A DNA stretch of 60,254 nt, from the IMG/VR virus record IMGVR_UViG_3300046170_000297, positions 1 through 60,254 of that record; one strand, 5' to 3'. Source of the DNA: a virus. Lineage: Duplodnaviria > Caudoviricetes. The position numbers and the translations under genes were made by a program. The notes under the pieces are model-generated. The model ran no database searches, was not told the origin of the DNA, and worked only from the letters and a program-made list of their open reading frames with translations. Shown here piece after piece: positions 11,231-26,587 of the stretch (position 1 is the first letter of the stretch; every line of letters starts with the position of its first letter).

Positions 11231-12781
11231 ATGGAGCAAAAACTCTTAAAGATATTTGAGGGTAATTCTGAACTGTTCATCACAACTTCTCTTACGGGGG
11301 AAGTTGATGAACGGGGTAAGAAGCAGGTTAAAGTACTCACGGTCCACGAACCTGTTACCCTTGAGTTATGGAAGAAGCATTTAAAAGGAGAGACACGGAT
11401 CGGGATAAAACCTGAGAACGGTGACGTGTGTAAATGGGGATGTATTGATATTGATCCCCGTAACTATACTACATTTTCAGAAAAGAAAATTGTAGATATC
11501 ATAAGAGATAATCAACTACCATTAATTGCAGTAAGATCTAAATCTGGTGGGCTACATTTATTTTTATTTTTGAATGATTGGTATCCTGTCAAAGAAGTTC
11601 TTAAAGTTTTAAATGATTGGAATAAAACTTTTTTCTATTCGGAAGAAGTATTTCCAATGAACAAATGTTTGAACATGCCGTACTTCAACATGGATCAAAC
11701 TACTGAGTTTGCTTACAACGATAACAATACTCCAGTGATGATAAATAATTTTTTAGAAATGATAACTAAAAAAACTGTAACCTTAGAGCAGTTAAATAAT
11801 ATTAAAGTAAAAGAGTATGAGCCAGAGAGTGATTGGAAACATTATCCTCCTTGTGTTCAGAAAATGATTTCAGAAAAATGGGAAGGTAATCACAGAAACG
11901 AATTGTTATTTAATGTTGGTGTTCTTGAAATGAAGAAAGCCGATGGCAGCTTAAATGCAAGTGAGATACAAAACATTTTACAGAGAAGGAACTATGAAAT
12001 ATTTACAACACCGTTAGATCCTAAAGAAGTAGAAACACTTGCAAAGTCTATATCTAAAAAAGATTATACATATAAGTGTCCACCTAAAACAAATGCAATT
12101 GCACCACTATGTAATAAAGATCTATGTAAGTTAAGAAAGCTTGGTATCGGTTCACAAGTACCAGATATGATTGATGACTTTGAAGATGTAGAGTTTATTA
12201 GATCCACTAAATCAATTGAGTACACATTTAAGTTTCAAGATGAGAAAATAATAATTAACCCAGAAGATATGAAAGATGAAAAATCTTTTAGAGTTAAGCT
12301 ATTACGTTATGGTATCTATTGGATGACATTACCTAAACCTAAGTCGGGACCATCTCCGTTTGAAATGCTTATGGCGACCTTAGTAAGGAAAGCAGTTGAG
12401 AATGAGAAGATGAAATTTGAAGATACACTTGGAGAAGAGAAATATAATTTTCTTAAAAAATTCTTTGAGAGTCATATTGAAGAAGATGACTTTGAGAAAC
12501 TACAAGACAATTATGTTATACTAGATTCTAAGACAAACATTTGTTACTTCAAAAAAATTACTTTCGAAAAATTTTTAGGTAGTGATAAAACATTTAAGAG
12601 TGCTAGTGAAGCATTGAATTTACTTAATTGTGATAGACATGACTACCATGAAGGTGTTAAGAATGTGTGGTCAGTTATGATGCCTAAGTTTGTTGATTAC
12701 AAAGTAGCAGAGAAAAAAGAAACAACAAAAACTGTAACGGAGATGGATGACGAATTCCACACAGGAAAGTTTAGAACTTAG
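11231..12781 (+). CDS. AEP-type primase with PriCT-like domain
   Basis: WGCIDID, RSKSGGLHLF, PPC and GNHRNELLF motifs. Confidence 0.8.
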   Translation: MEQKLLKIFEGNSELFITTSLTGEVDERGKKQVKVLTVHEPVTLELWKKHLKGETRIGIKPENGDVCKWGCIDIDPRNYTTFSEKKIVDIIRDNQLPLIAVRSKSGGLHLFLFLNDWYPVKEVLKVLNDWNKTFFYSEEVFPMNKCLNMPYFNMDQTTEFAYNDNNTPVMINNFLEMITKKTVTLEQLNNIKVKEYEPESDWKHYPPCVQKMISEKWEGNHRNELLFNVGVLEMKKADGSLNASEIQNILQRRNYEIFTTPLDPKEVETLAKSISKKDYTYKCPPKTNAIAPLCNKDLCKLRKLGIGSQVPDMIDDFEDVEFIRSTKSIEYTFKFQDEKIIINPEDMKDEKSFRVKLLRYGIYWMTLPKPKSGPSPFEMLMATLVRKAVENEKMKFEDTLGEEKYNFLKKFFESHIEEDDFEKLQDNYVILDSKTNICYFKKITFEKFLGSDKTFKSASEALNLLNCDRHDYHEGVKNVWSVMMPKFVDYKVAEKKETTKTVTEMDDEFHTGKFRT

Positions 12782-14390
12782 AATATTAAAAGATCTTTAC
12801 CATAAAACAGTAAAGATCTTTGGTCCTCCAGGTACAGGTAAAACATACACACTGATTGAGAAGGTTCTTAAAAGTTATTTAAGAAAAGGTGTAAGGCCAA
12901 ATGATATTGCTTATCTATCCTTTACTAACAAAGCTGTTAACACTGCAGTCAGAAGAGCCATGGAGTCTTTTCCAAATTATTCTACAGAAGATTTTTCAAG
13001 ATTCAAAACACTACATACTTATTGTAGGAGATACTTTCCAGAAGAAGTATTTGATCCTAAAGATTGTACAATTGATTTTGCATTACAAACCAAAGTAATT
13101 AAGTCTTCAGATAAAAGATTAGCAGATGATAACTTCATGTATAAAGATTGGTCATTAGGAGTCTACAGTAAAGCTAGAAATTTATTAATAGATCCTGAGG
13201 AAGCCTACAAAATGGAAGGGTATAAAAGAGATTCACTTACAGTATTTAAAAGAAAGATAGATACTTACGAACACTATAAGACAGGAGGAGGAGAGAGATC
13301 ATTCATAGACTTTGATGATATGATTCAAAGAGCAATAACAGAAGTAGATTTCCCACCACTTAAAGTTTTAATCTTAGATGAAGCACAGGACTGCACCCCG
13401 TTACAATGGTCAGTGTTATATAAAATGGCACCTAAAGTAGATAGGATATATCTTGCAGGAGATGATGACCAGGCTATATACAAATGGAATGGAGCAGATC
13501 CAAAATATTTTACAAAGTTCTTTCCAGGTCGCAAAGTAAAACTAAGAAAGACTCAAAGATTTGGAGAAGCAATTCATAGATTCTCACAAGTAATTAGAAG
13601 AGGGATTAGAGACAGTGAAGAAAAAGAATATCAACCAGGAGATTCAAAAGGCTCTGTTAAAAGTTATTTGTCATTCAAAGAGATACCTTTCGAAACATTA
13701 AAAGAAGATTGGTATATCTTAGGTCGTATTAATGAAACTGTAAATGAACTTAGGATGTTAGCTAAGGATGCAGGTTTATATTACAAAGACAATAGAGGTA
13801 CTAAATGTTTTGATCAGAAACAATGGGAAGCTATCAAAGCTTGGACAACAATTAGTAATAATAAAAAGATAGATAAAAGAGCAGCACGTAACATGGTTAA
13901 ATATATTAGAGAACTTGAAGACCCTGCTTATAGATTAGATAAGTTCTGGAGGAATGAACCAGATTTAAGAGAGTATGACTTTCAAACTTTAAAAGAGTGG
14001 TGTGGTCTAGCATTAGAAGATACACAAAAAAATAAACCTTGGTATTGGATACTGAGAAGAAATTTTAAACCAAGACAAGTAAGACACTTTATAAGATTGT
14101 TAAGAAGATATGGACAAAAAGAATTAGATAAGGATCCAATAATAACAATTGATACAATACATAGTGTCAAAGGTGGTGAAGCAAATCATGTTGTACTTTA
14201 TAGTAAAGGTAATTACCCATCTGATTATGCAAACAAAAACAAACAAGAAAAAAGTGATGAACGTAAGGTTTGGTATACCGGTGCAACAAGAGCAAGAAAA
14301 ACTTTACATTTATTAAGAACAGACTATAAGTTTAACTACCCAATAGGGTCAGACTATTTAATTTATGTCCAGGAGAAAAATGACAAATAA
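12747..14390 (+). CDS. UvrD/Rep-like SF1 helicase
   Basis: GPPGTGKT, LDEAQD, AGDDDQAIY, TIHSVKGGE and YTGATRA motifs. Confidence 0.93.
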   Translation: MTNSTQESLELRILKDLYHKTVKIFGPPGTGKTYTLIEKVLKSYLRKGVRPNDIAYLSFTNKAVNTAVRRAMESFPNYSTEDFSRFKTLHTYCRRYFPEEVFDPKDCTIDFALQTKVIKSSDKRLADDNFMYKDWSLGVYSKARNLLIDPEEAYKMEGYKRDSLTVFKRKIDTYEHYKTGGGERSFIDFDDMIQRAITEVDFPPLKVLILDEAQDCTPLQWSVLYKMAPKVDRIYLAGDDDQAIYKWNGADPKYFTKFFPGRKVKLRKTQRFGEAIHRFSQVIRRGIRDSEEKEYQPGDSKGSVKSYLSFKEIPFETLKEDWYILGRINETVNELRMLAKDAGLYYKDNRGTKCFDQKQWEAIKAWTTISNNKKIDKRAARNMVKYIRELEDPAYRLDKFWRNEPDLREYDFQTLKEWCGLALEDTQKNKPWYWILRRNFKPRQVRHFIRLLRRYGQKELDKDPIITIDTIHSVKGGEANHVVLYSKGNYPSDYANKNKQEKSDERKVWYTGATRARKTLHLLRTDYKFNYPIGSDYLIYVQEKNDK

Positions 14391-14628
14391 AGGAATCTTT
14401 GATGAAGCTAAAGATGCTGATGAAAAGCAGATTGGTGGGAATCACTACCGAAGCTTTTTAATTCAACCGTGGACTTTTATAAGAAAGAATGGTCTCAATC
14501 CTTTTCAAGCAAATGTTATTAAATATGTATGTAGATATTTATTCAAAGGTAAAACAATAGAAGATATAGATAAGATTATTCATTACTGTGAACTAGAGAA
14601 ACAACATTTGAAAGAAGAAAAAAAATGA
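14380..14628 (+). CDS. DUF3310 / T7 gp1.7-like protein
   Basis: QIGGNHY, NVIKYVCRY and EDIDKIIHY motifs; AGGAG RBS before ATG 14380. Confidence 0.8.
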   Translation: MTNKGIFDEAKDADEKQIGGNHYRSFLIQPWTFIRKNGLNPFQANVIKYVCRYLFKGKTIEDIDKIIHYCELEKQHLKEEKK

Positions 14629-16499
14629 ACGGACTACAACTTACGTTAACATTTAAGAAATCAATGTGGAATACACCGTCAGAATATAAAGATTTATCTG
14701 GTGCAACTGAGATAGCAATTGACTTAGAAACTAGAGACGATGGTATTAATGAAAAGCTTGGAGCTGGTTGGGCTTTAGGTAAAGGAGAGATTGTAGGGTT
14801 TGCAGTAGCCGTTGATGGATGGCAAGGATACTTTCCGTTTGGACATTTAGGTGGTGGTAACATGATACCTGAACAAGTAAAAAAATATATGAAGGATGTA
14901 TGTGCCCTTCCTTGTGCAAAAATATTTCACAACGCTCAGTATGATGTAGGTTGGTTAGAAGCATCAGGAATCACGGTCAACGGACCAATAGTAGATACAA
15001 TGATAGCTGCAGCATTAATAGATGAAAATAGATTTCAATATAACTTAAATAGTTTGTCAGTAGATTATTTGGGAGAAATAAAAGCAGAGACAGAATTAAG
15101 AGAAGCAGCCGCAGCTCATGGTATAGACCCTAAAGCAGAGATGTGGAAGTTACCTGCAGAACATGTTGGTTACTATGCAGAGCAAGATGCAGTGTTAACA
15201 TTAAAGTTATGGCAAAGATTTAAACAAGAGATAAGAACGCAGAGCCTAGAAACTGTGTGGGATCTAGAACAACAATTAATTCCGGTGCTGATAAAAATGC
15301 GTCAACGAGGAGTGAGAGTCCAAGTGGAATTAGCTGAACGACTAAAAAAAGAAATGTTGAGCCAAGAAAAAGAACTACTGGGGGCCATACAAAAAGAATC
15401 AGGAATAGAAGTAGACATTTGGGCATCACGCCAGATTGCCAAAGCTTTTGACAAAATGAAATTAGATTATCCACGAACTGAAAAAACAAATGAGCCTTCC
15501 TTTACACAAAATTGGTTAATAAATAACAAACATAACCTAGCGCAATTAATTGTGCAAGCCAGAGAGATAAATAAATTTCATAGTACCTTCCTGTCATCAA
15601 TACTTCGATACCAGGTCAAAGGTAGAATCCATGGAGAGATACAACAATTAAGATCTGATTTAGGGGGAACGGTATCAGGTAGACTATCTATGAGTAACCC
15701 AAATCTACAACAAGTACCTGCTAGAAACAAAGATCTAGGACCTAAAATTAGATCACTGTTTATACCAGAAGAGGGTTACCAATGGGGCTCATTTGATTAC
15801 TCGCAACAAGAACCACGAATGACGGTTCACTATGCAGCATCTATTGGAGACAATGGTTATGAAGGGGCACAAGAATTAGTAGAGGCTTATAAGAATGATG
15901 ACGCAGACTTCCATCAAACAGTAGCAGATCTTGTTGGTATTGAAAGAACTCAAGCTAAAACAATTGGTCTAGGTATAATGTATGGAATGGGTAAGAATAA
16001 ATTAGCATTATCTTTAGGGGTAACTAAAGATGAAGCAGATGAATTAATTGTAAAATATAACAAGAAGGTTCCTTTTATTAGAAAACTTTCTGATAGATGT
16101 AAGTTAGCAGCAGATGAGAAGGGTGTGATTAGGACTAAAAAAGGTAGGAAGTGTAGGTTTGATAAGTGGGAGACTAGAGACTTTGGATTACACCAAGCCG
16201 AAACATTTGATAATGCAGTTGCTAAATATGGTAAAGATAATATTAAGAGAGCCTATACATACAAAGCATTGAATAGATTAATTCAAGGATCCTCAGCTGA
16301 TCAAACAAAACAGTCTATGTTGGATTGTTACAAAGCAGGTCACTTACCTATGTTACAGATACATGATGAACTTTGTTTTAATATTAAGGATGATGCTCAT
16401 GCAAAAGAGATAAAAGGTATTATGGAGAAGTCAATTGAGTTTAAAGTACCTTCAGTGGTTGACGTTGGATTAGGAAAGAGTTGGGGTGATGCTAAATAG
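14625..16499 (+). CDS. polA: Family A DNA polymerase with 3'-5' exonuclease
   Basis: DLET, HNAQYD, SGRLS, DYSQQEPR, RTQAKTIGLGIMYG and QIHDEL motifs. Confidence 0.96.
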   Translation: MNGLQLTLTFKKSMWNTPSEYKDLSGATEIAIDLETRDDGINEKLGAGWALGKGEIVGFAVAVDGWQGYFPFGHLGGGNMIPEQVKKYMKDVCALPCAKIFHNAQYDVGWLEASGITVNGPIVDTMIAAALIDENRFQYNLNSLSVDYLGEIKAETELREAAAAHGIDPKAEMWKLPAEHVGYYAEQDAVLTLKLWQRFKQEIRTQSLETVWDLEQQLIPVLIKMRQRGVRVQVELAERLKKEMLSQEKELLGAIQKESGIEVDIWASRQIAKAFDKMKLDYPRTEKTNEPSFTQNWLINNKHNLAQLIVQAREINKFHSTFLSSILRYQVKGRIHGEIQQLRSDLGGTVSGRLSMSNPNLQQVPARNKDLGPKIRSLFIPEEGYQWGSFDYSQQEPRMTVHYAASIGDNGYEGAQELVEAYKNDDADFHQTVADLVGIERTQAKTIGLGIMYGMGKNKLALSLGVTKDEADELIVKYNKKVPFIRKLSDRCKLAADEKGVIRTKKGRKCRFDKWETRDFGLHQAETFDNAVAKYGKDNIKRAYTYKALNRLIQGSSADQTKQSMLDCYKAGHLPMLQIHDELCFNIKDDAHAKEIKGIMEKSIEFKVPSVVDVGLGKSWGDAK

Positions 16500-16917
16500 A
16501 AATTTTCCCCATGATAACAAAGACTTAATAGCTTATGCAGCAGGATTGTTTGATGGTGAAGGTAACATTAATTATGCACAATATAAATGCAAGAAGCCAA
16601 ATGGTAAAACTTATTTAAAATGGAATGTAGCAATGGAAGTTGCAATGACAGATTTAGATTGTATCAAAAATTTTTATGATATTGTTAAAGTAGGCAGTAT
16701 TCATTTCAAAGGTATTGGTAAAGGATCATTAGGTAAGACAGATCAGTGGAGATGGAGATGCTCTCATCAAAAAGCATTACACCTTGCAAAATTATTTTTA
16801 CCGTACGCTACTGTAAAAAGAGAAAGACTATTAAAAATTATAAATCACTATGAGTTTATTAAGCCGAAAGAATCCCTAGGAAAAAAGTTTAGTTTTTTAA
16901 AATCTAATAAAACTTAG
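16486..16917 (+). CDS. Free-standing LAGLIDADG endonuclease
   Basis: IAYAAGLFDGEG motif. Confidence 0.8.
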   Translation: MMLNRNFPHDNKDLIAYAAGLFDGEGNINYAQYKCKKPNGKTYLKWNVAMEVAMTDLDCIKNFYDIVKVGSIHFKGIGKGSLGKTDQWRWRCSHQKALHLAKLFLPYATVKRERLLKIINHYEFIKPKESLGKKFSFLKSNKT

Positions 16918-17099
16918 CCTGTTGCAACTAAATTTTCTTGAACATCTTGATGTTTTAATTGATTTCTAAGAGATTTAATTTCACTCTCAGTCTTCAACAT
17001 ATCTGTAGTACAACCACCATGTGTCATAAGACTAGCTGACCAAGCATGTTCTTTGTGTTGAAGTTTTTTAAGCAACTCCAATTTTTCTTTACTTAACAT
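16914..17099 (-). CDS. Hypothetical protein
   Basis: Overlapping member of a leftward four-gene operon. Confidence 0.6.
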   Translation of the reverse strand: MLSKEKLELLKKLQHKEHAWSASLMTHGGCTTDMLKTESEIKSLRNQLKHQDVQENLVATG

Positions 17100-17283
17100 C
17101 TACGATCTCCTCGTATGTTATGTGGACTCTTTTATTACCGGTGAAGCCATCATCGATAACTTCAACAGTACCGTTATCCACGTTATCTGACACTTTCAAT
17201 ATCGCTTCTTTACAATCGTCTGCTTCGACTACTTGGTCTACTTGCAAACCTCCCATGTATGCTTTGATACGATAAGCTGTCAT
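17089..17283 (-). CDS. Hypothetical protein
   Basis: Overlapping member of the leftward operon. Confidence 0.6.
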   Translation of the reverse strand: MTAYRIKAYMGGLQVDQVVEADDCKEAILKVSDNVDNGTVEVIDDGFTGNKRVHITYEEIVDVK

Positions 17284-19789: not shown

Positions 19790-20180
19790 TAATAGTTTTA
19801 AGTATGCAGCCAAAATATTAAAAGGTAAATTAAATAGATCTCAGTCTAAGCAACCGGTACAGAAAACATTATCTATGGATGTGGCCATGGAGCATTTAAA
19901 AAACAATCAACATTTGATAGATGCTTATGATGAAAAATTTAAGATGAGACCACACCTCCCACCCAAAGATAATTTTTAAAATATTTAAAAGAGAACCTGG
20001 ACAAGAAAAAATTAGTTGAAGATAATATAATTAAGAAGACAACTATTGATCATTGGTTAAGATCAGATCATTGCTTTGCATATCCTACCGTTGAATATTG
20101 GAAAATGATTAAGCCATACTTAAAAGAAATTAAAGTTTGATTATCAAATGACATTTGAAATCGAGTCTGATTGGGAATAA
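18678..20180 (+). CDS. Overlapping-frame methyltransferase beta chain (TRD-like modules and motif IX)
   Basis: AAGGAG SD at 18663 before ATG 18678; open +1 frame with repeated (W/Y/F)xTP modules and LNPTFVEFLMGFPENWT; 3' end uncertain because of indels. Confidence 0.65.
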
Positions 20181-20258
20181 ATTTTTAGTCATCTCCCTTG
20201 TACCCACGACACTGATTAGTTTATAATAAGTACTTGCCACTGAAGGTAAAATTTTTAT

Positions 20259-20467
20259 ATGACTAAACTATTACGCAACTACAAGATATGTACCGACTGT
20301 AAAGGAACGGGTCATATCGAGACTTCAAGCAATCGTTTGTATCTTGTATCATTTGCAATGGATCAGGATCCACGACTCACGGCTCATCATCAGAAGCAGA
20401 ACAAGTATTATTATTTAAAGTAGCGTGGGATTATATTAATGGCAGACAAAACGGATGGTATCACTGA
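20259..20467 (+). CDS. Small CxxCxGxG zinc-finger protein (frameshifted)
   Basis: CTDCKGTG and CIICNGSG; upstream TTGTAC-N18-TATAAT at 20198..20227. Confidence 0.6.
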
Positions 20468-20738
20468 TCTAACAAAAGTATTAGTTAGTGCTGCTAAAAA
20501 ATTTAATGAAAAAGAATATAGCAAACTACAATCTGTAATCTTTGCTATGCTCCATGGGGTTAACTATGGTTACACTGATATGGATGCAAGATTCCTGGAA
20601 GACTCAAACGATTTATTTTTTATACACAAAGCTGATAAAATACATAAGAAGATAACTAAGAAAGCAAAAGTAAAATACAAAGATAACGTAATTCAATTTA
20701 AAGATTTTAGTAGAGAGGACGCTACGAATGATGGCTGA
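20439..20738 (+). CDS. Hypothetical protein
   Basis: Overlapping ORF within the operon. Confidence 0.6.
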   Translation: MADKTDGITDLTKVLVSAAKKFNEKEYSKLQSVIFAMLHGVNYGYTDMDARFLEDSNDLFFIHKADKIHKKITKKAKVKYKDNVIQFKDFSREDATNDG

Positions 20739-20943
20739 TAATTATACTAAAGCAGAAGCACAATTGGATTTTAGAGATATCTCTGAACACATAAGTGAAG
20801 AGGGATTAGAAGGCGCAGCCATTACAACTTTGATTGATGATGTACATGAACACTTTGAGGTCGCCACTCGATTAAATTTTAAAAAATCGAAAGGCCATTA
20901 TCGTGCTCTACTCAGTAGACTTATTAAAACTTATGGGCATTAG
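20728..20943 (+). CDS. Hypothetical protein
   Basis: GAGG RBS; overlapping ORF. Confidence 0.6.
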   Translation: MMADNYTKAEAQLDFRDISEHISEEGLEGAAITTLIDDVHEHFEVATRLNFKKSKGHYRALLSRLIKTYGH

Positions 20944-21376
20944 AATTACTGCTGATATCATTGAAGAGAACCATATTTGCAATGAACAGAAGTTATGGAG
21001 GCATGTAATTTTAAATGCGTTTGAAGATACTAGAGCTCTAAGTGCAGATCGTAAAGCTTCATTAAATAAAACGGATGCACATTATTGGATAGCAGCCTCG
21101 AAAGATTTTGAACAGATCTGTTGGTGGGCAGGATGGGAACCAGATAATGTTAGGTACCGGTATTACAAAGCATTAAAGAATGGAGATATCAAATTTAAAA
21201 GAAAACATTTTCTTTGGTATGAGTATGATAAATTATTTCAAAGACTCAAAGCCGAAACTGATAATGATTTAAGACGTGAGCTGAGACGTAATATAGAAAA
21301 TAAAAGAAGACAGATTATGGATGCAGATAATGTTTTTGTTGATAATTTTAAAAAGGATTTGAATGTTGAACTTTAA
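20903..21376 (+). CDS. Hypothetical protein (start probably ATG near 20933)
   Basis: EQKLWRHVILNAFED...DFEQICWWAG, a common phage pattern. Confidence 0.65.
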   Translation: MLYSVDLLKLMGIRITADIIEENHICNEQKLWRHVILNAFEDTRALSADRKASLNKTDAHYWIAASKDFEQICWWAGWEPDNVRYRYYKALKNGDIKFKRKHFLWYEYDKLFQRLKAETDNDLRRELRRNIENKRRQIMDADNVFVDNFKKDLNVEL

Positions 21377-21450
21377 CCTGCAGTAAGGGAGCAAAATCTA
21401 AGCTGCAGGTTAAAGCAGTTAACTCATGATTTCTCCTAAGTTAGTTAATT
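21365..21450 (-). ncRNA. Candidate small RNA 2 / 13-bp hairpin that may also terminate the + strand operon
   Basis: Perfect stem 21371-21383/21403-21415; minus-strand TTGAAA-N16-TATCTT at 21479..21452. Confidence 0.4.
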
Positions 21451-21475
21451 AAAGATATACGTTTAAAATTTTTTT

Positions 21476-21674
21476 TCAAGTTTTTTTTCTTCTAAAAAAT
21501 GTTCTCCAGAACCAGGATCTACAAATAGAAATAGCCGTGAATATTACTGCAATATGGAAAGCTTTCCCATACGGTTGGGTACATATCGAAAAATGGAAAT
21601 ATATATAGCTGCACTAAGGTTGATAGTAATAACCCTGAGCCGACATCAATTAATGTTTCGAAAAGATTTCTCAT
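21476..21674 (-). CDS. Small two-TM membrane protein (one indel near 21560)
   Basis: MRNLFETLIDVGSGLLLSTLVQLYIFPFFDMYP...IAVIFTAISICRSWFWRTFF. Confidence 0.65.
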
Positions 21675-21773
21675 AATAAAACTTAGGCCCACTAGAAAGG
21701 AATAAATCTAAAAAAACGTGAGCCTAAGCTAACTAACAATTGAGGTAATGAAAATGATAACAAACATTACTCA
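21675..21773 (-). ncRNA. Candidate small RNA 1 (two hairpins, single-stranded linker, terminator)
   Basis: Dedicated promoter; stem 21682-21692/21718-21728 has a G-U pair only on the minus strand and is followed by UUUUAUU. Confidence 0.55.
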
Positions 21774-21778
21774 AGATA

Positions 21779-21807
21779 ACTTTAAGTCATTGGCCAGGAT
21801 CCGTCAA
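21779..21807 (-). promoter_or_regulatory. Sigma70-type promoter TTGACG-N17-TAAAGT
   Basis: Near-consensus hexamers with a 17-nt spacer. Confidence 0.7.
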
Positions 21808-21855
21808 TCTTTAATCTGGGTCAATGGTATTAGAACCACGGCTCACGGGGCCTTG

Positions 21856-22078
21856 TTTCCTAGTACACTTCCTTAGAAAAAAAAAAATAAAAAAAAGTTT
21901 GTAAGGGTTTTTTTCTAGGAAACTAGGAAAAACATTGAAACACAACACTTCTAGAGCAAAACACACTAGGAAAACACTAGGAAAATTCCTAGTAGTTCTA
22001 GGAAAATACACTGCTTGAGGCCATTTTCTGCTAAAAAATAAAATAAAAAAGTTTGTAAGAAAGAGTATTAGGAAAAAA
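21856..22078. repeat. CTAGGAAA iteron-like cluster flanked by AAAAAAGTTTGTAAG direct repeats (candidate origin or pac region)
   Basis: Five CTAGGAAA copies, inverted TTCCTAG copies and A-tracts in non-coding DNA upstream of terS. Confidence 0.6.
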
Positions 22079-22099
22079 TTTATGATATAACAGGTCAAG

Positions 22100-22606
22100 A
22101 TGACTAAAAGAAAAAATACTTTGAAATCAACATCTGAGCTGACATTAAAGCAAAAGGCCTTTGTAGATATATATGTTAGTAATTGGGGAGAGATCTCCAA
22201 GACTGAAGCAGCCACTCGGGCTGGCTATACCTCTGATAAAAAAGAAGGACCAACAGAAATTGCAAGTAGACTAACCAATCCAAATAAAAATCCTCATGTA
22301 GTACGTTACATGGAGATGAAATATAACCAGGAATTAAAAAAACATGAAGGGGACAAGCTTAAAAAATATAAAAGATTCGAGACACTAAGTAAAAAGGCAG
22401 AAGATAAAAAACAATTCTCTGTAGCTGTAAACGCAGAATATCGTAGTGGACAAATGGCAGGATTTTTTGTAGATAAAAAAGAAGTAACCCATGTTGGATT
22501 GGAGGGTATGAGTCGTGAACAACTTGAAAAAAGGTTATCCGAACTTGAAGGAAAAATCGGAGAAGCCAAAAACATCATTGACGTTACGCCAGAAGAAATT
22601 ACTTGA
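22100..22606 (+). CDS. terS: Terminase small subunit
   Basis: LTLKQKAFVDIY...TEAATRAGY helix-turn-helix start typical of TerS. Confidence 0.8.
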   Translation: MTKRKNTLKSTSELTLKQKAFVDIYVSNWGEISKTEAATRAGYTSDKKEGPTEIASRLTNPNKNPHVVRYMEMKYNQELKKHEGDKLKKYKRFETLSKKAEDKKQFSVAVNAEYRSGQMAGFFVDKKEVTHVGLEGMSREQLEKRLSELEGKIGEAKNIIDVTPEEIT

Positions 22607-22699
22607 TGAGGGAAAATTTATGGTAGTTTTTAATGAGATCCATAATAAACATTTACAAACATCAATTGGTATCGTTTCAATTTTAACAGAGGACAAGTC

Positions 22700-22801
22700 A
22701 TGAACTTCGAAGATACATATGGGTTTTTTTTCACAAAATCCGAAGATGCATATGGGTTTTTTTTGATGAAGTCCGAAGATACATATGGGTTTTTTTCATG
22801 A
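22700..22801 (+). repeat. Three 33-bp tandem repeats forming a 33-aa micro-ORF
   Basis: CGAAGATRCATATGGGTTTTTTT x3; ORF MNFEDTYGFFFTKSEDAYGFFLMKSEDTYGFFS with ATGA overlaps at both ends. Confidence 0.7.
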
Positions 22802-23118
22802 ATAAAAAAATACAAAAATCAAAAATTTTAAATTTTAATTTTAAAAATTTAGGAAATAATATTTTAGATTATCCTTACGTAGAAATTAAATGGCTTGATA
22901 TTGAGGGTGACGCAGGTTGGAGTAGTACCAAAGATTTAAAAAATCAAAAACTTCCTGTATGTGTATCAAAAGGATATTTGTTATCTCAAGCAAAAGGTAT
23001 CACCAGAATATTTACAGATTATATTGAAACAAAAGATAAACCAACATTTGATAATATAGGAAATACTACAATTATTCCTACCTCAGTAATTCAATCAATA
23101 AAAAAAATAAAAGTTTAA
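22798..23118 (+). CDS. Conserved phage hypothetical protein
   Basis: VEIKWLDI..GW..GYLL..IIPTSVI pattern. Confidence 0.7.
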   Translation: MNKKIQKSKILNFNFKNLGNNILDYPYVEIKWLDIEGDAGWSSTKDLKNQKLPVCVSKGYLLSQAKGITRIFTDYIETKDKPTFDNIGNTTIIPTSVIQSIKKIKV

Positions 23119-23142
23119 CTTGATTTTTATATAATTACGTAT

Positions 23143-23160
23143 ATCTCACTTAAATGGGAT
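23143..23160. promoter_or_regulatory. Palindromic operator copy ATCTCAC-TTAA-ATGGGAT
   Basis: Consensus match; TTGATT at 23120. Confidence 0.5.
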
Positions 23161-23261
23161 TTTTATCACACATATTTATATTTATACTCAAACGTCCATT
23201 ATTAGCCATTATTTTGCTTGTATTTGCTTATCTTTTAATTGGTGGTTTTTTCAAATTATAA
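23154..23261 (+). CDS. 35-aa hydrophobic peptide
   Basis: MGFLSHIFIFILKRPLLAIILLVFAYLLIGGFFKL. Confidence 0.4.
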   Translation: MGFLSHIFIFILKRPLLAIILLVFAYLLIGGFFKL

Positions 23262-23262
23262 T

Positions 23263-23298
23263 TTGACTTATACTCTATATATCTTATATTGATGGGAT
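23263..23298 (+). promoter_or_regulatory. Promoter TTGACT-N16-TATATT overlapped by operator ATCTTAT-ATTG-ATGGGAT
   Basis: Read directly from the sequence. Confidence 0.65.
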
Positions 23299-23469
23299 AT
23301 GATTATAAAACTAACAAAAAAAGAAAAAGAGTTTTTGGTTGATTGGTTAAGTGATGATTTAGATATCCAACTTAAAAATTATTATGTCAAAGAAGCAGAC
23401 ACAATAGTTAAACCCTTGAGATCAATAATAAAAAAACTAACAATAAAACAAAGGAGCAAAAATGGGTAG
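23299..23469 (+). CDS. Small hypothetical protein, probably leaderless
   Basis: MIIKLTKKEKEFLVDWLSDD...; ATG sits at the predicted transcription start. Confidence 0.5.
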   Translation: MIIKLTKKEKEFLVDWLSDDLDIQLKNYYVKEADTIVKPLRSIIKKLTIKQRSKNG

Positions 23470-23833
23470 ATACTATCAAGGAGACATAGAAGGTAAATTC
23501 TGGTTTGGTGTTCAATCAAGTGATGACGCAGATCATTTTGGTTCAGAGGGTCAAGCAAGTGAATTAAATTATTTTTTTGATAAAGAAAATTTAAAAGATA
23601 TCAAAAAAGGTATTAAAGAATGTTTAAAAGGTCTAGGTGATTGGAAGGATAAGCTAGATACATTTTTTAAAAATAATGAGGGCTACAACGATGAGATGTT
23701 GTGGGATCAAATCAAACTCAATAAAGTTAATGCTAAAAAAATGTTAAAATTTTATGCAAGACTTAGGTTGGGTAATGAGATAAAAGAATGTGTAGAAAAA
23801 AACGGAGAATGTTCTTTTTCTGCAGAACTTTAA
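23462..23833 (+). CDS. Early-region hypothetical protein
   Basis: AAGGAG RBS; MGRYYQGDIEGKFWFGVQSS start. Confidence 0.75.
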   Translation: MGRYYQGDIEGKFWFGVQSSDDADHFGSEGQASELNYFFDKENLKDIKKGIKECLKGLGDWKDKLDTFFKNNEGYNDEMLWDQIKLNKVNAKKMLKFYARLRLGNEIKECVEKNGECSFSAEL

Positions 23834-23855
23834 TAACTAACAAGGAGCAAATAAA

Positions 23856-24455
23856 ATGGACGCATACGAAGTAAAAAAGGAAACAGAGAACAGTTATAAT
23901 CTAGGGAAGATTAGACAATTAATTAAAACAAATAAGTATCTTTTTAAAAAAGAAAAAAATAGATACTTTGATATTAACAAGTTTGAAAAAAACAAACTTT
24001 CTATTAATCCTCAAGGTGGTGGATTTGTTCAATCTGTAGATATAACAGATCAAAATTTTATTAATGATTTTAAGAATGAAAAAATCATTTTTAAAAATGA
24101 ACTACCAATGGTTTATAAAAAAGTAAAATTATATCATGATCATTGGATTGCAGACAATAGAATTGATCTTGCACATTATATTGAAGGTTTTGTTCATGAA
24201 TACAAATGGAATGGTTGGTCTATGCCTATGGTTGAACTTGATCAGATTGAAAAGTTTAATAAAATTCAAAAAGAAACTTTAGATAGTGAACCAACATCTA
24301 TATTTAAAATTATTGATGAAGATAGTATTCAAATTAAAATGTATGATGAAGACGATTGGATTGGAATTGAAGCAGAATATATAGATGTAAATGGTCAAAC
24401 AAAAAAAGTTTTTGATATTTCACTTGGTTGGACTTGGTCAGAGGAGGGTTTATAA
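23856..24455 (+). CDS. Early-region hypothetical protein
   Basis: AAGGAG RBS; WNGW motif. Confidence 0.7.
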   Translation: MDAYEVKKETENSYNLGKIRQLIKTNKYLFKKEKNRYFDINKFEKNKLSINPQGGGFVQSVDITDQNFINDFKNEKIIFKNELPMVYKKVKLYHDHWIADNRIDLAHYIEGFVHEYKWNGWSMPMVELDQIEKFNKIQKETLDSEPTSIFKIIDEDSIQIKMYDEDDWIGIEAEYIDVNGQTKKVFDISLGWTWSEEGL

Positions 24456-25691: not shown

Positions 25692-25721
25692 TTATTAACT
25701 AACTAAAAAGGAATAAAAAAA

Positions 25722-26513: not shown

Positions 26514-26548
26514 TTGCATTCTTTTAAACCGTCCTATATTAATGGGAT
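26514..26548 (+). promoter_or_regulatory. Promoter (TTGCAT) with operator GTCCTAT-ATTA-ATGGGAT
   Basis: Consensus match. Confidence 0.55.
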
Positions 26549-26587
26549 ATATAACATAAGTTATATAAAACTAACAAAAGGAAAAAA

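What the first reader, a model, noticed from the sequence alone, without database searches (positions are those of the whole stretch)
21675..21807. Candidate phage small RNA complementary to early-gene translation starts
Seen: a minus-strand promoter TTGACG-N17-TAAAGT (21807..21779) would drive a ~100-nt RNA. It consists of hairpin A (21740-21774), an unpaired linker UUGUUAGUUAG (21729-21739) and hairpin B (21682-21728), followed by UUUUAUU. Hairpin B has a C/A mismatch on the + strand that becomes a G-U pair only on the minus strand, which supports the direction. The linker is the reverse complement of the (T)AACTAAC(AA) motif beside the starts of five early ORFs (23309, 23435, 23834, 25696, 26569). 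The inner loop of hairpin B (UUUAUUCCUU) is complementary to the RBS of the gp88-like gene (AAGGAATAAA, ~25708). Inference: a trans-acting multi-target sRNA that shuts off early-gene translation. I know of no such switch described in pelagiphage-like viruses. Alternatively, it is an attenuator leader for the membrane gene starting at 21674.
Basis: partly seen in the sequence, partly recalled or inferred. Interest (0 to 1): 0.88.

Follow-up and report, generated by a model that had tools for sequence, protein, structure and literature searches.

The report
Conserved pelagiphage small RNA, anti-ribosome-site seed
A short structured RNA gene, read against the direction of nearly all other genes, is conserved in phages of the abundant ocean bacterium SAR11, and its exposed middle part matches, in antisense, a signature that sits in front of a small set of the phage's own genes.

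Summary
At 21675-21807 (minus strand) lie a sigma-70-like promoter, hairpin A, the linker CCUCAAUUGUUAGUUAG, hairpin B and a U-rich tail.

The window is a relative of Pelagibacter phage HTVC023P. A covariance model finds the same module, always antisense to the small terminase gene (terS), in 57 of 82 sources. All 20 modelled pairs show compensatory changes. G-U pairs outnumber A-C mismatches 64 to 3 on the minus strand. The -35 box and the GUUAGUU core are nearly invariant, and the predicted start falls at the base of hairpin A.

AACTAAC is not enriched overall (12 seen, 13.6 expected). It is concentrated 19-29 nt before start codons of genes just after terS, in the window, in HTVC023P and in 36 of 40 related loci.

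Pairing energies are modest in the window itself and stronger in relatives. No strand-resolved RNA data were available, so expression and repression remain unproven.

Best reading: a new family of phage-encoded base-pairing small RNA acting on a class of translation start regions. No Rfam family matched, and my literature searches found no description of it.

The parts
21802..21807 (-). -35 box TTGACG of the small-RNA promoter
   Evidence: Listed by the promoter scan. In 45 distinct relatives the box reads T45 T45 G32/T11/A2 A45 C45 A31/G10/T4. The TT is invariant in alignment A2.
21779..21784 (-). -10 box TAAAGT, 17-nt spacer
   Evidence: Spacer is 17 nt in 26, 18 in 12 and 16 in 7 of 45 sequences. 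The -10 box ends 8 nt before hairpin A in 24 of 45, so the predicted start (about 21771-21772) sits at the base of hairpin A.
21740..21774 (-). Hairpin A. Core stem GUAAUG/CAUUAC at 21770-21765 and 21750-21745; the loop contains UUUCAU.
   Evidence: Fold. All 6 modelled pairs show changes on both sides and 95.5% of cells are paired.
21729..21744 (-). Single-stranded linker or seed, C-UCAAUUGUUAGUUAG. Family consensus is CCUCUUUGUUAGUU. It is antisense to AACUAAC plus an A-rich spacer plus a Shine-Dalgarno sequence.
   Evidence: GTTAGTT is invariant in 45 distinct sequences chosen by that motif. The covariance model, which does not require the motif, found only three variants: GTTAAGTT, GGTAGTT and GGTTAGTT. 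Predicted unpaired probability is 0.75 for the core and 0.82 for the 5' flank, against 0.47 for the whole RNA.
21682..21728 (-). Hairpin B, 11-13 bp, terminator-like
   Evidence: Fold. All 13 modelled pairs show changes on both sides and 95.6% of cells are paired. A strand-neutral helix finder gives 508 Watson-Crick, 47 G-U and 5 A-C pairs.
21675..21681 (-). U-rich tail UUUUAUU, running straight into the ATG at 21674
   Evidence: At least 5 T in the 8 nt after hairpin B in 31 of 45 distinct relatives; 11 relatives have an A-rich tail instead.
21519..21674 (-). Small ORF of 51 aa (MRNLFETLIDVGSG...), one hydrophobic stretch, directly after hairpin B. It is a neighbour of the RNA, not a constant part of it.
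   Evidence: ORF list. Weak matches only: DUF7220 at E 6.8e-4, below the cut-off, and phrog_4276 at E 0.0021. Found beside the RNA in 27 loci, 13 on the minus strand and 14 inverted on the plus strand, at 84-100% identity.
23309..23315 (+). AACTAAC leader motif of ORF 23299..23469. A TTG at 23335 is an alternative start, which would put the motif 26 nt upstream.
   Evidence: TTGACT-N16-TATATT lies upstream.
23435..23441 (+). AACTAAC leader motif, 27 nt before ATG 23462
   Evidence: Duplex with the seed -12.5 kcal/mol. The motif is present in 4 of 4 distinct orthologous upstream regions.
23835..23841 (+). AACTAAC leader motif, 21 nt before ATG 23856
   Evidence: Duplex -13.4 kcal/mol. Present in 5 of 5 distinct orthologous upstream regions.
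25697..25703 (+). AACTAAC leader motif, 25 nt before ATG 25722 (GP88 family, PF17338)
   Evidence: TTGACT-N16-TTAATA lies upstream.
26569..26575 (+). AACTAAC leader motif, 19 nt before ATG 26588
   Evidence: Duplex -11.8 kcal/mol.
21371..21415 (-). Second conserved minus-strand hairpin ('element C'), with loop ...UUUUGCUCCC..., downstream of a second promoter-like site (TTGAAA-N16-TATCTT, 21479-21452). May belong to the same system.
   Evidence: for the promoter-like site. In 40 distinct relatives the stems vary while the loop GATTGCTCCC is kept: 391 Watson-Crick, 27 G-U and 2 A-C pairs on the minus strand.

Best explanation
This is the gene of a small regulatory RNA of roughly 85-100 nt, encoded by HTVC023P-type pelagiphages and transcribed against the direction of nearly all other phage genes.

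Proposed mechanism, with shown and inferred steps marked:
- Host sigma-70 RNA polymerase starts at a conserved TTGAC(A/G)-N16-18-TAnnnT promoter. (Inferred from sequence.)
- The RNA begins with a protective 5' hairpin (A).
- It exposes a nearly invariant single-stranded seed, 5'-CCUCUUUGUUAGUU-3' (CCUCAAUUGUUAGUU in this window).
- It ends in a GC-rich hairpin (B) that acts as an intrinsic terminator in most lineages.
- The seed pairs with the AACUAAC, A-rich, Shine-Dalgarno leaders of several small phage genes lying between the small and large terminase genes. It covers the ribosome-binding site and so lowers translation, possibly also mRNA stability. (Inferred: repression, its timing and any chaperone are untested.)

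Shown here: the conserved structure, the strand, the promoter-like boxes, seed conservation and accessibility, and the placement of the complementary motif at start regions.

In the window's own lineage, the same transcript, if it reads through hairpin B, would also be the leader of the 51-aa ORF at 21674.
For: 1. Family. The window is about 75% identical to Pelagibacter phage HTVC023P over the locus. Model R2 finds one copy on the strand opposite terS in 57 of 82 sources at E <= 1.6e-6. It finds one strong copy in each of 5 of 5 complete or near-complete records used as positive controls.

2. Structure. On alignment A8, 94.8% of cells are paired against 64.2% in shuffles (0 of 500 shuffles as high). 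All 20 pairs have changes on both sides. The covariation score is 0.726 against 0.214. Slid partners give at most 45.5% paired.

3. Strand. In 44 distinct true rows there are 728 Watson-Crick, 64 G-U and 3 A-C cells, so 95.7% are paired on the minus strand and 88.3% on the plus strand. A helix finder that treats G-U and A-C alike gives 47 against 5 for hairpin B and 26 against 13 for hairpin A.

4. Promoter. The -35 box is T45 T45 G32 A45 C45 A31 in 45 sequences. The -10 box ends 8 nt before hairpin A in 24 of 45. 60% of sequences score >= 10 against 3% of shuffles.

5. Seed. It is invariant while the stems change and is predicted to be unpaired.

6. Targets.
- AACTAAC lies in start-region windows for 6 of 10 copies in the window (permutation mean 0.61) and 4 of 9 in HTVC023P (gp24 twice, gp26, gp27; gp23 carries the motif 21 nt before its start, and was also printed).
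- In 40 distinct loci, 73 of 96 plus-strand copies have start-region geometry, spread over 36 loci. Permutations average 28.1 copies, 3.6 of them with that geometry. The reverse complement occurs 3 times, 0 with that geometry.
- By gene family the motif is kept in 21 of 34, 5 of 5, 9 of 12 and 4 of 4 distinct upstream regions.

7. Energies. In HTVC023P, gp27 gives -19.5, gp23 -17.5 and gp26 -16.2 kcal/mol; these rank 1, 2 and 4 of 81 starts, and about 1% of shuffled seeds do as well. Across 38 loci, the best duplex beats 95% of shuffled seeds in 22 and the second best in 32. The top-ranked start carries the motif in 26 of 35.

8. Co-occurrence. Phages where R2 finds no copy show 0 of 7 AACTAAC copies with start-region geometry: whole records of HTVC027P, 023Pt_psg01 and DSL-LC04 for the R2 search, and 14-kb stretches around terS for the motif count. 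L077-L079 also have none.
Against: - No transcript was seen. The RNA-library data were assembled contigs, which cover the locus but give no strand, ends or level, and DNA carry-over cannot be excluded.
- In the window itself the proposed duplexes are only 9-10 bp (-11.8 to -13.4 kcal/mol). They do not stand out from other strong Shine-Dalgarno sites or from shuffled seeds (fifth best p about 0.29). The GP88 start is not in the top 12 of 84.
- No seed-target covariation was found. The three seed variants (L061/L062, L045, L064) are not matched by changed target motifs, and target variants such as AATTAAC occur beside an unchanged seed.
- 11 of 45 distinct sequences lack a U-tail after hairpin B, so termination there is unexplained.
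- The plus strand of the locus itself looks like a start region of the same class (AACTAAC-AAAGAGG-N-ATG). A plus-strand role for the linker therefore cannot be excluded from sequence alone.
- The related loci are not independent, and alignment A8 was fitted to the model's structure.
Confidence: 0.55

Rival explanations
1. The RNA acts only in cis, as an antisense regulator. It is real, but its job is to pair with, or collide with, plus-strand transcripts that read from the replication-module genes through this gap into terS. It would gate late-gene read-through by RNase III cleavage or transcriptional interference. The AACTAAC leaders elsewhere would be unrelated copies of a common start-region design.
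For: - The locus lies in the only long gap, 21377-22099, between plus-strand gene blocks, directly before terS.
- It is the only strong minus-strand element there, and it is perfectly complementary to any read-through RNA.
- The window's trans duplexes are weak.
Against: - This does not explain why the single-stranded linker is invariant while both stems drift. A cis antisense RNA is complementary whatever its sequence.
- It does not explain why the linker equals the antisense of the most start-region-enriched 7-mer of its composition.
- No plus-strand read-through has been shown.
Confidence: 0.15
2. The functional strand of the linker is the plus strand. The locus would be one more AACUAAC-Shine-Dalgarno-AUG leader, serving a tiny or vestigial ORF or acting as a decoy. 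The motif would be read by the ribosome as a translational enhancer, or by a protein repressor. Hairpin B would be a terminator between convergent units.
For: - The plus strand reads AACTAAC-AATTGAGG-N8-ATG, with a 42-aa ORF at 21748..21876, the same layout as the target leaders.
- HTVC023P gp24 also has a hairpin directly before its AACTAAC.
- A motif at a fixed distance from start codons could work without any RNA partner.
Against: - The plus-strand ORF is not conserved: ATG-TAA in L018 and L038, no ATG in L020 and L037, and stops after 5-11 codons in L047, L053 and L076.
- G-U against A-C counts favour the minus strand, 64 to 3 and 47 to 5.
- The near-invariant minus-strand -35 box at a fixed distance from hairpin A would be left unexplained.
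- No sigma-70-like promoter precedes the locus on the plus strand, unlike several target leaders.
- Hairpin B is not followed by a T-run on the plus strand in most relatives.
Confidence: 0.12
3. The element is an attenuating leader of the small membrane-protein gene at 21674. The promoter would drive the 51-aa ORF, and hairpin B with its U-tail would limit read-through and hide the weak ribosome site.
For: - In the window and 12 related loci the ORF's ATG directly follows hairpin B's U-tail on the same strand.
- No other promoter for it is evident. The scan's other minus-strand site at 21479-21452 lies downstream of the ORF.
- In L026 the only AGG before the ATG lies inside hairpin B.
Against: - Of 57 loci with the RNA, the ORF is co-oriented in 13, inverted (convergent) in 14 and absent in the rest, including HTVC023P.
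- The promoter, both hairpins and the seed are kept in all of them.
- This can therefore be a lineage-specific second use, not the conserved function.
Confidence: 0.1
4. The signal acts at the DNA level, in replication or packaging. The hairpins would form in single-stranded DNA, for example a priming or packaging signal beside the CTAGGAAA repeats in front of terS, and the promoter-like boxes would be part of that signal.
For: - The module lies within 50-230 nt of a cluster of 6 CTAGGAAA repeats at 21856-22005, just upstream of terS.
- G-T pairs are also tolerated in DNA hairpins.
Against: - A -35/-10 pair with canonical spacing and a start point at the base of hairpin A, a U-tail in 31 of 45, and a seed antisense to start regions all fit a transcript.
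- Nothing in the data requires a DNA-level role.
- In HTVC023P, L036, L040 and L042 the module sits 855-1004 nt from terS instead of about 370-470 nt, because of an inserted gene, so its distance to the repeats is not fixed.
Confidence: 0.05

Closest known systems
Trans-acting base-pairing small RNAs of bacteria and prophages that mask ribosome-binding sites (for example prophage-encoded DicF, or multi-target sRNAs such as GcvB and Spot 42). Recalled from general knowledge, not from any call.
   Same: Own promoter, 5' stem-loop, short conserved single-stranded seed, 3' intrinsic-terminator hairpin with U-tail, several targets hit at or near the Shine-Dalgarno sequence.
   Different: - No sequence or structure match to any Rfam 15 family.
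- Encoded by a lytic-type marine podovirus, with predicted targets that are the phage's own genes.
- Chaperone dependence is unknown.
- The seed includes an anti-Shine-Dalgarno CCUC plus a phage-specific 7-mer.
Antisense RNAs of phages P1/P7 (c4) and P4 (CI RNA). Recalled, not from any call.
   Same: A small phage RNA whose short exposed stretches pair with complementary sites that overlap a ribosome-binding site of phage genes encoded elsewhere in the same genome.
   Different: As I recall it, c4 is processed from the same transcript as its targets and serves prophage immunity. Here the RNA has its own promoter on the opposite strand. The predicted targets are 4-5 separate leaders 1.5-5 kb away. 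No lysogeny genes were looked for.
Phage lambda OOP RNA and P22 sar RNA. Recalled, not from any call.
   Same: A short RNA (about 70-80 nt) with its own promoter and intrinsic terminator, transcribed against the main direction of phage transcription in a regulatory gap.
   Different: Those are cis-antisense to a conserved coding gene or its start. Here the opposite strand carries no conserved ORF, and the conserved part is a seed that matches distant leaders.
Phage T4 RegA (translational repressor) and RegB (endoribonuclease cutting GGAG in early mRNAs), and the phage T7 gene 10 'epsilon' leader enhancer. Recalled, not from any call.
   Same: A class of phage mRNAs marked by a short leader signal next to the Shine-Dalgarno sequence and regulated together after transcription.
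   Different: Those signals are read by proteins or by the ribosome. Here a conserved RNA carries the exact antisense of the signal.

Membership tests
Any curated RNA family (Rfam 15) | Score at or above the family's gathering threshold | tested here: not met
   0 matches in the whole window at gathering thresholds. In 21350-22100 the best permissive matches score 7-21.5 bits against thresholds of 35-99.
Base-pairing small RNA with intrinsic terminator (a kind, not a curated family) | Own promoter at a fixed distance from the structured RNA | tested here: met
   Conserved TTGAC(A/G)-N16-18-TAnnnT. The -10 box ends 8 nt before hairpin A in 24 of 45. This is sequence evidence only.
Base-pairing small RNA with intrinsic terminator (a kind, not a curated family) | Secondary structure conserved through compensatory changes on the transcribed strand | tested here: met
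   All 20 pairs have changes on both sides; 94.8% paired against 64.2% in shuffles. G-U 64 against A-C 3; 47 against 5 and 26 against 13 with a strand-neutral finder.
Base-pairing small RNA with intrinsic terminator (a kind, not a curated family) | 3' GC-rich hairpin followed by a U-run | tested here: inconclusive
   At least 5 T in 8 nt in 31 of 45 distinct sequences, but 11 have A-rich tails. In L016 and L064/L065 hairpin B is replaced by a different hairpin.
Base-pairing small RNA with intrinsic terminator (a kind, not a curated family) | Conserved, accessible single-stranded seed complementary to target start regions | tested here: met
   The seed is invariant and predicted unpaired at 0.75-0.82. 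Its complement is enriched at start regions. Energies are significant in HTVC023P and most relatives, not in the window.
Base-pairing small RNA with intrinsic terminator (a kind, not a curated family) | A discrete transcript and a regulatory effect on targets | not testable with these tools
   Only assembled contigs of RNA libraries could be laid on the locus, with no strand or ends.
Cis-antisense RNA (OOP/sar type) | Overlaps a conserved gene or its start on the opposite strand | tested here: not met
   The plus-strand ORF 21748..21876 is not conserved: ATG-TAA, no ATG, or 5-11 codons in relatives.
Transcription attenuator or leader of a downstream gene | Always followed by the regulated gene on the same strand | tested here: not met
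   A co-oriented ORF follows in 13 of 57 loci, is inverted in 14, and is absent in the others. The feature is met in the window's lineage only.
P1 c4-type antisense RNA | Processed from the same operon transcript that carries its target sites | tested here: not met
   The RNA lies on the opposite strand from all predicted targets and has its own promoter. The defining feature itself is recalled, not taken from a call.

The most novel reading that the evidence does not exclude

Two tandem minus-strand RNAs would take part. One is this small RNA, with seed CCUCUUUGUUAGUU. The other is the neighbouring 'element C' hairpin, whose conserved loop AUUGCUCCC is antisense to the GGAGCAAU that follows AACUAAC in many of the same leaders.

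Together they would cover the whole ribosome landing pad of a regulon of sigma-70-driven, individually promoted genes between terS and terL. This would silence those genes as the RNAs accumulate. In effect it would be a ribosome-binding-site mimic in antisense, evolved by copying a start region.
Probability: 0.22. Interest if true: 0.8.

Novelty: new member of a known kind. Interest (0 to 1): 0.64.

Why it matters
SAR11 and its phages dominate the surface ocean, yet almost nothing is known about how these phages time their gene expression. A transcriptome study of a related type (HTVC027P) reports a mosaic arrangement of temporal classes and early genes of unknown function, and does not mention small RNAs. 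I read passages only (PMC12753301).

A conserved, single-copy small-RNA gene with a defined seed and a defined set of candidate target leaders gives a concrete, testable handle on post-transcriptional control in these virocells. It also defines a new RNA family that can be searched for in ocean metatranscriptomes, and a regulon of unknown genes lying between the two terminase genes.

Tried and rejected
- RNA evidence. The look-up of sequencing runs listed 20 runs, all kept as assembled contigs, with the best share of words at 0.27. Laying X1, X2, X3 and X6 showed contigs over the locus, for example a 617-nt record over 21476-21906 and a 188-nt record over 21750-21938. Contigs give no strand, ends or level, and DNA may be present, so there is no verdict.
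- RNAalifold on plain MAFFT alignments. It gave no structure for all 45 sequences and only hairpin B for subgroups, because hairpin A was misaligned. I replaced this with a hand-given structure on a gapless 3-sequence seed and two rounds of covariance models.
R2 finds the copy at 2.7e-12.
- A collection scan for the exact 15-mer of the seed returned many chance matches in large unrelated contigs. Only 18 of the 80 loci listed carry the whole RNA, so this says nothing on distribution beyond HTVC023P-type contigs.
- Seed-target covariation was looked for and not found.
- Homology of the 199-aa target (23856) to HTVC027P gp33, also 199 aa and reported as early-to-middle, was tested and rejected at E = 15.
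- A pairing between the element C loop and GGAGCAA in leaders rests on only 2 start regions in the window and 1 in HTVC023P. The remaining copies counted, bar element C's own loop copy in each genome, are not at start regions. I kept this only as part of the bold reading.
- A test of whether SAR11 16S rRNA carries GUUAGUU, which would make AACUAAC a ribosome-binding enhancer, was not run. No host genome handle was at hand.
- Supplementary Table S3 of PMC12753301 (temporal classes) could not be seen. It concerns HTVC027P, which lacks this RNA by R2.
- Literature searches for a prior description found none: 'HTVC023P', 'pelagiphage' with 'small RNA', 'phage-encoded' with 'sRNA', 'marine' and 'SAR11', 'AACTAAC' with 'phage', and 'pelagiphage' with 'noncoding RNA'. 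I saw listings and abstracts only, plus passages of PMC12753301 and PMC9599517.
Full report
**What is in the window.** The window is a 60,254-base virus record with nearly all long ORFs on the plus strand. Over 20000-24000 it matches Pelagibacter phage HTVC023P at about 75% identity. The finding lies in a 724-nt gap between the plus-strand ORF 20903..21376 and the small terminase gene terS at 22100..22606 (Terminase_2, E 9e-6; 90.5% identical to HTVC023P gp21).

- TTGACG-N17-TAAAGT at 21807-21779
- hairpin A at 21774-21740
- linker UUGUUAGUUAG at 21739-21729
- hairpin B at 21728-21682
- UUUUAUU, then the ATG at 21674

The minus-strand RNA folds at -27.1 kcal/mol (z -4.38, 0 of 200 shuffles as good). 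The plus strand folds at -18.5 kcal/mol. No tRNA and no Rfam family is present.

**Conservation.** I fetched 80 IMG/VR loci with the terS protein. The 7-mer AACTAAC stands on the plus strand a few hundred bases before terS in most loci that have enough flank. Around it, 45 distinct sequences share one layout although the stems differ in sequence. Read on the minus strand, the layout is a -35 box, a -10 box, hairpin A, CCUCUUUGUUAGUU, hairpin B and usually a U-run.

Plain alignments could not be folded. I therefore built a covariance model from a gapless three-sequence seed with a structure I supplied, searched all loci, rebuilt the model and searched again. The result was 57 matches at E <= 1.6e-6 among 82 sources, all on the strand opposite terS. 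There were five weaker extra matches. Two of them (L066, L075) had been trained in or resemble a trained-in row. Three are the antisense of target-type start regions.

On that alignment:
- 94.8% of cells pair, against 64.2% in shuffles
- all 20 pairs have changes on both sides
- the covariation score is 0.726 against 0.214
- sliding the partners drops pairing to 45.5% or less

This alignment was fitted to the model and the loci are relatives, so the numbers overstate independence. An independent helix finder on unaligned sequences gives the same picture.

**Which strand.** In 44 distinct true rows there are 64 G-U cells at 15 of 20 pair positions, and 3 A-C cells at 2 positions. That gives 95.7% pairing on the minus strand against 88.3% on the plus strand. 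The strand-neutral finder gives 47 against 5 for hairpin B and 26 against 13 for hairpin A. Most of the A-C cases in hairpin A come from over-extension into the linker.

The plus-strand ORF that the locus would start (21748..21876 in the window) is not conserved. It is ATG-TAA in L018 and L038, has no ATG in L020 and L037, and runs only 5-11 codons in others.

**Promoter and ends.** The -35 box is T45 T45 G32/T11/A2 A45 C45 A31/G10/T4. The spacer is 17 nt in 26, 18 in 12 and 16 in 7. The -10 box ends 8 nt before hairpin A in 24 of 45 and 5-11 nt before it in 38 of 45. 60% of sequences score at least 10 of 12.5, against 3% of shuffles. My routine mis-picked the site in L026, L034 and L049; by eye L049 has TTGACG-N17-TAGTAT. 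The predicted start is thus the first base of hairpin A.

From the start of hairpin A to the end of hairpin B is 71-91 nt, median 81. A U-rich tail (at least 5 T in 8) follows in 31 of 45, and 11 have an A-rich tail. In L016 and L064/L065, hairpin B is replaced by a different hairpin while the promoter, hairpin A and seed remain.

Each of five complete or near-complete records holds exactly one strong copy. Whole records of HTVC027P, 023Pt_psg01, DSL-LC04 and two more distant IMG/VR records hold none.

**The seed and its complement.** GTTAGTT is invariant in the 45 sequences (they were picked by that motif). The model-based search, which does not need the motif, turned up only GTTAAGTT (L061/L062), GGTAGTT (L045/L048) and GGTTAGTT (L064) as variants. 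The seed is predicted to be open: unpaired probability 0.75 for the core and 0.82 for the seven bases 5' of it, against 0.47 for the whole RNA, and above 0.7 in 33 of 45.

AACTAAC is not over-represented in the window as a whole (12 against 13.6 expected). Its placement, however, is far from random:
- 6 of its 10 plus-strand copies fall at -35..+13 of predicted starts, one being the locus itself. This is the highest of all 105 permutations of the same letters, whose mean is 0.61.
- In HTVC023P, using the depositors' gene starts, 4 of 9 copies do so. The sites printed are in front of gp23, gp24 (two copies), gp26 and gp27.
- In 40 distinct related loci with at least 3 kb downstream, 73 of 96 plus-strand copies are followed by a Shine-Dalgarno word and an ATG at the right spacing, in 36 loci. 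Permutations average 28.1 copies, 3.6 of them in that geometry. The reverse complement occurs 3 times, never in that geometry.
- Taking gene families by their first codons, without asking for the motif, it is present in 21 of 34 (10 more with one mismatch), 5 of 5, 9 of 12, 4 of 4 and 4 of 12 distinct upstream regions.

All these genes lie just after terS. In HTVC023P they lie between terS (gp21) and terL (gp29), a stretch with unusually long gaps between genes. Several have their own sigma-70-like promoter, while two in the window (23435, 23835) are inside an operon. The motif therefore goes with the start codon, not with a promoter. Their products have no known function except one GP88-family protein.

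**How strong is the pairing.**
- In the window the seed reads CCUCAAUUGUUAGUU and the duplexes are short: -13.4 (23856), -12.5 (23462) and -11.8 (26588) kcal/mol, against a median of -9.1 for 84 starts. Shuffled seeds do as well (fifth best p about 0.29).
- In HTVC023P, gp27, gp23 and gp26 give -19.5, -17.5 and -16.2 kcal/mol. These rank 1, 2 and 4 of 81, and about 1% of shuffled seeds match the best or the fourth-best value.
- Over 38 scored loci (2 of 40 skipped for seed variants), the best duplex beats 95% of shuffled seeds in 22 and the second best in 32. The top start carries the motif in 26 of the 35 loci that have one in the set. The mean best is -17.5 against a mean median of -10.8 kcal/mol. 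The window's own lineage is the weakest.
- In many relatives the plus strand of the RNA gene (AACTAACAAAGAGGCAATAAATG) is almost a copy of a target start region (AACTAACAAAGGAGCAATAATG). This is why the model also hits the antisense of such starts. The RNA gene therefore looks like an inverted copy of a start region of this class.

**Neighbours.** The 51-aa ORF after hairpin B is real: 84-100% identity in 27 loci. It lies on the RNA's strand in 13 loci and inverted in 14, and is missing elsewhere. The leader or attenuator reading therefore holds, at most, as a second use in the window's lineage.

**Verdict.** A new, well-supported structured small-RNA family of HTVC023P-type pelagiphages is the best reading, with a seed aimed at AACUAAC-type start regions. 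I put the odds of a real minus-strand RNA at about 0.8, and of the trans-acting anti-start-region mechanism at about 0.55. Expression, direction of effect and timing are untested. My literature searches found no prior description, and the transcriptome paper on a related phage type does not mention small RNAs in the passages I read.

Noticed in passing
window 21371-21415 (minus strand), with promoter-like site 21479-21452: A second conserved minus-strand hairpin ('element C') overlaps the stop codon of ORF 20903..21376. Its stems vary among relatives: CTTAGAGGG, CTTTGAGGG, CTGAAGGG, CCTGCAG, ATCTGCAAC, ACCCTGTAG. Its loop GATTGCTCCC is kept. In 40 distinct sequences there are 391 Watson-Crick, 27 G-U and 2 A-C pairs on the minus strand. 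A TTGAAA-N16-TATCTT site precedes it. This may be a second small RNA.
   Followed up: partly
window 21426-21446 (minus strand): On the minus strand, between the second promoter-like site and element C, the sequence reads AACTAAC-TTAGGAG-AAATC-ATG-AGT-TAA. That is a target-type leader followed by a one-codon ORF. It is shared by L002, L003, L006 and L012. Its purpose is unknown.
   Followed up: no
window 21856-22005: Six of the window's seven CTAGGAAA copies cluster in 150 bp between the small-RNA promoter and terS (2.75 expected in the whole window). The cluster is conserved in HTVC023P. These may be terminase or replication protein binding repeats.
   Followed up: partly
window 21880-21906 and 22034-22060: Two A-rich direct repeats ending in AAAAAAGTTTGTAAG flank the CTAGGAAA cluster. 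The second is kept in HTVC023P just before terS.
   Followed up: no
window 21519-21674 versus L018, L025 and others: The small hydrophobic ORF next to the RNA is inverted between lineages: 13 loci on the minus strand, 14 on the plus strand, at 84-100% identity. This suggests a small invertible or re-inserted cassette.
   Followed up: partly
window 23285-23300 and 26535-26550; HTVC023P 13036-13051: A shared TATATT-N-ATGGGATAT string follows a -35-like box upstream of three AACTAAC leaders. It is probably the -10 box and the first transcribed bases of a promoter class.
   Followed up: no
HTVC023P record 12372-17222 (L082): Seven genes of unknown function, with gaps of about 80-420 nt, separate terS (gp21) from terL (gp29). 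In HTVC027P, terS and a few small genes lie on the strand opposite to their neighbours.
   Followed up: no
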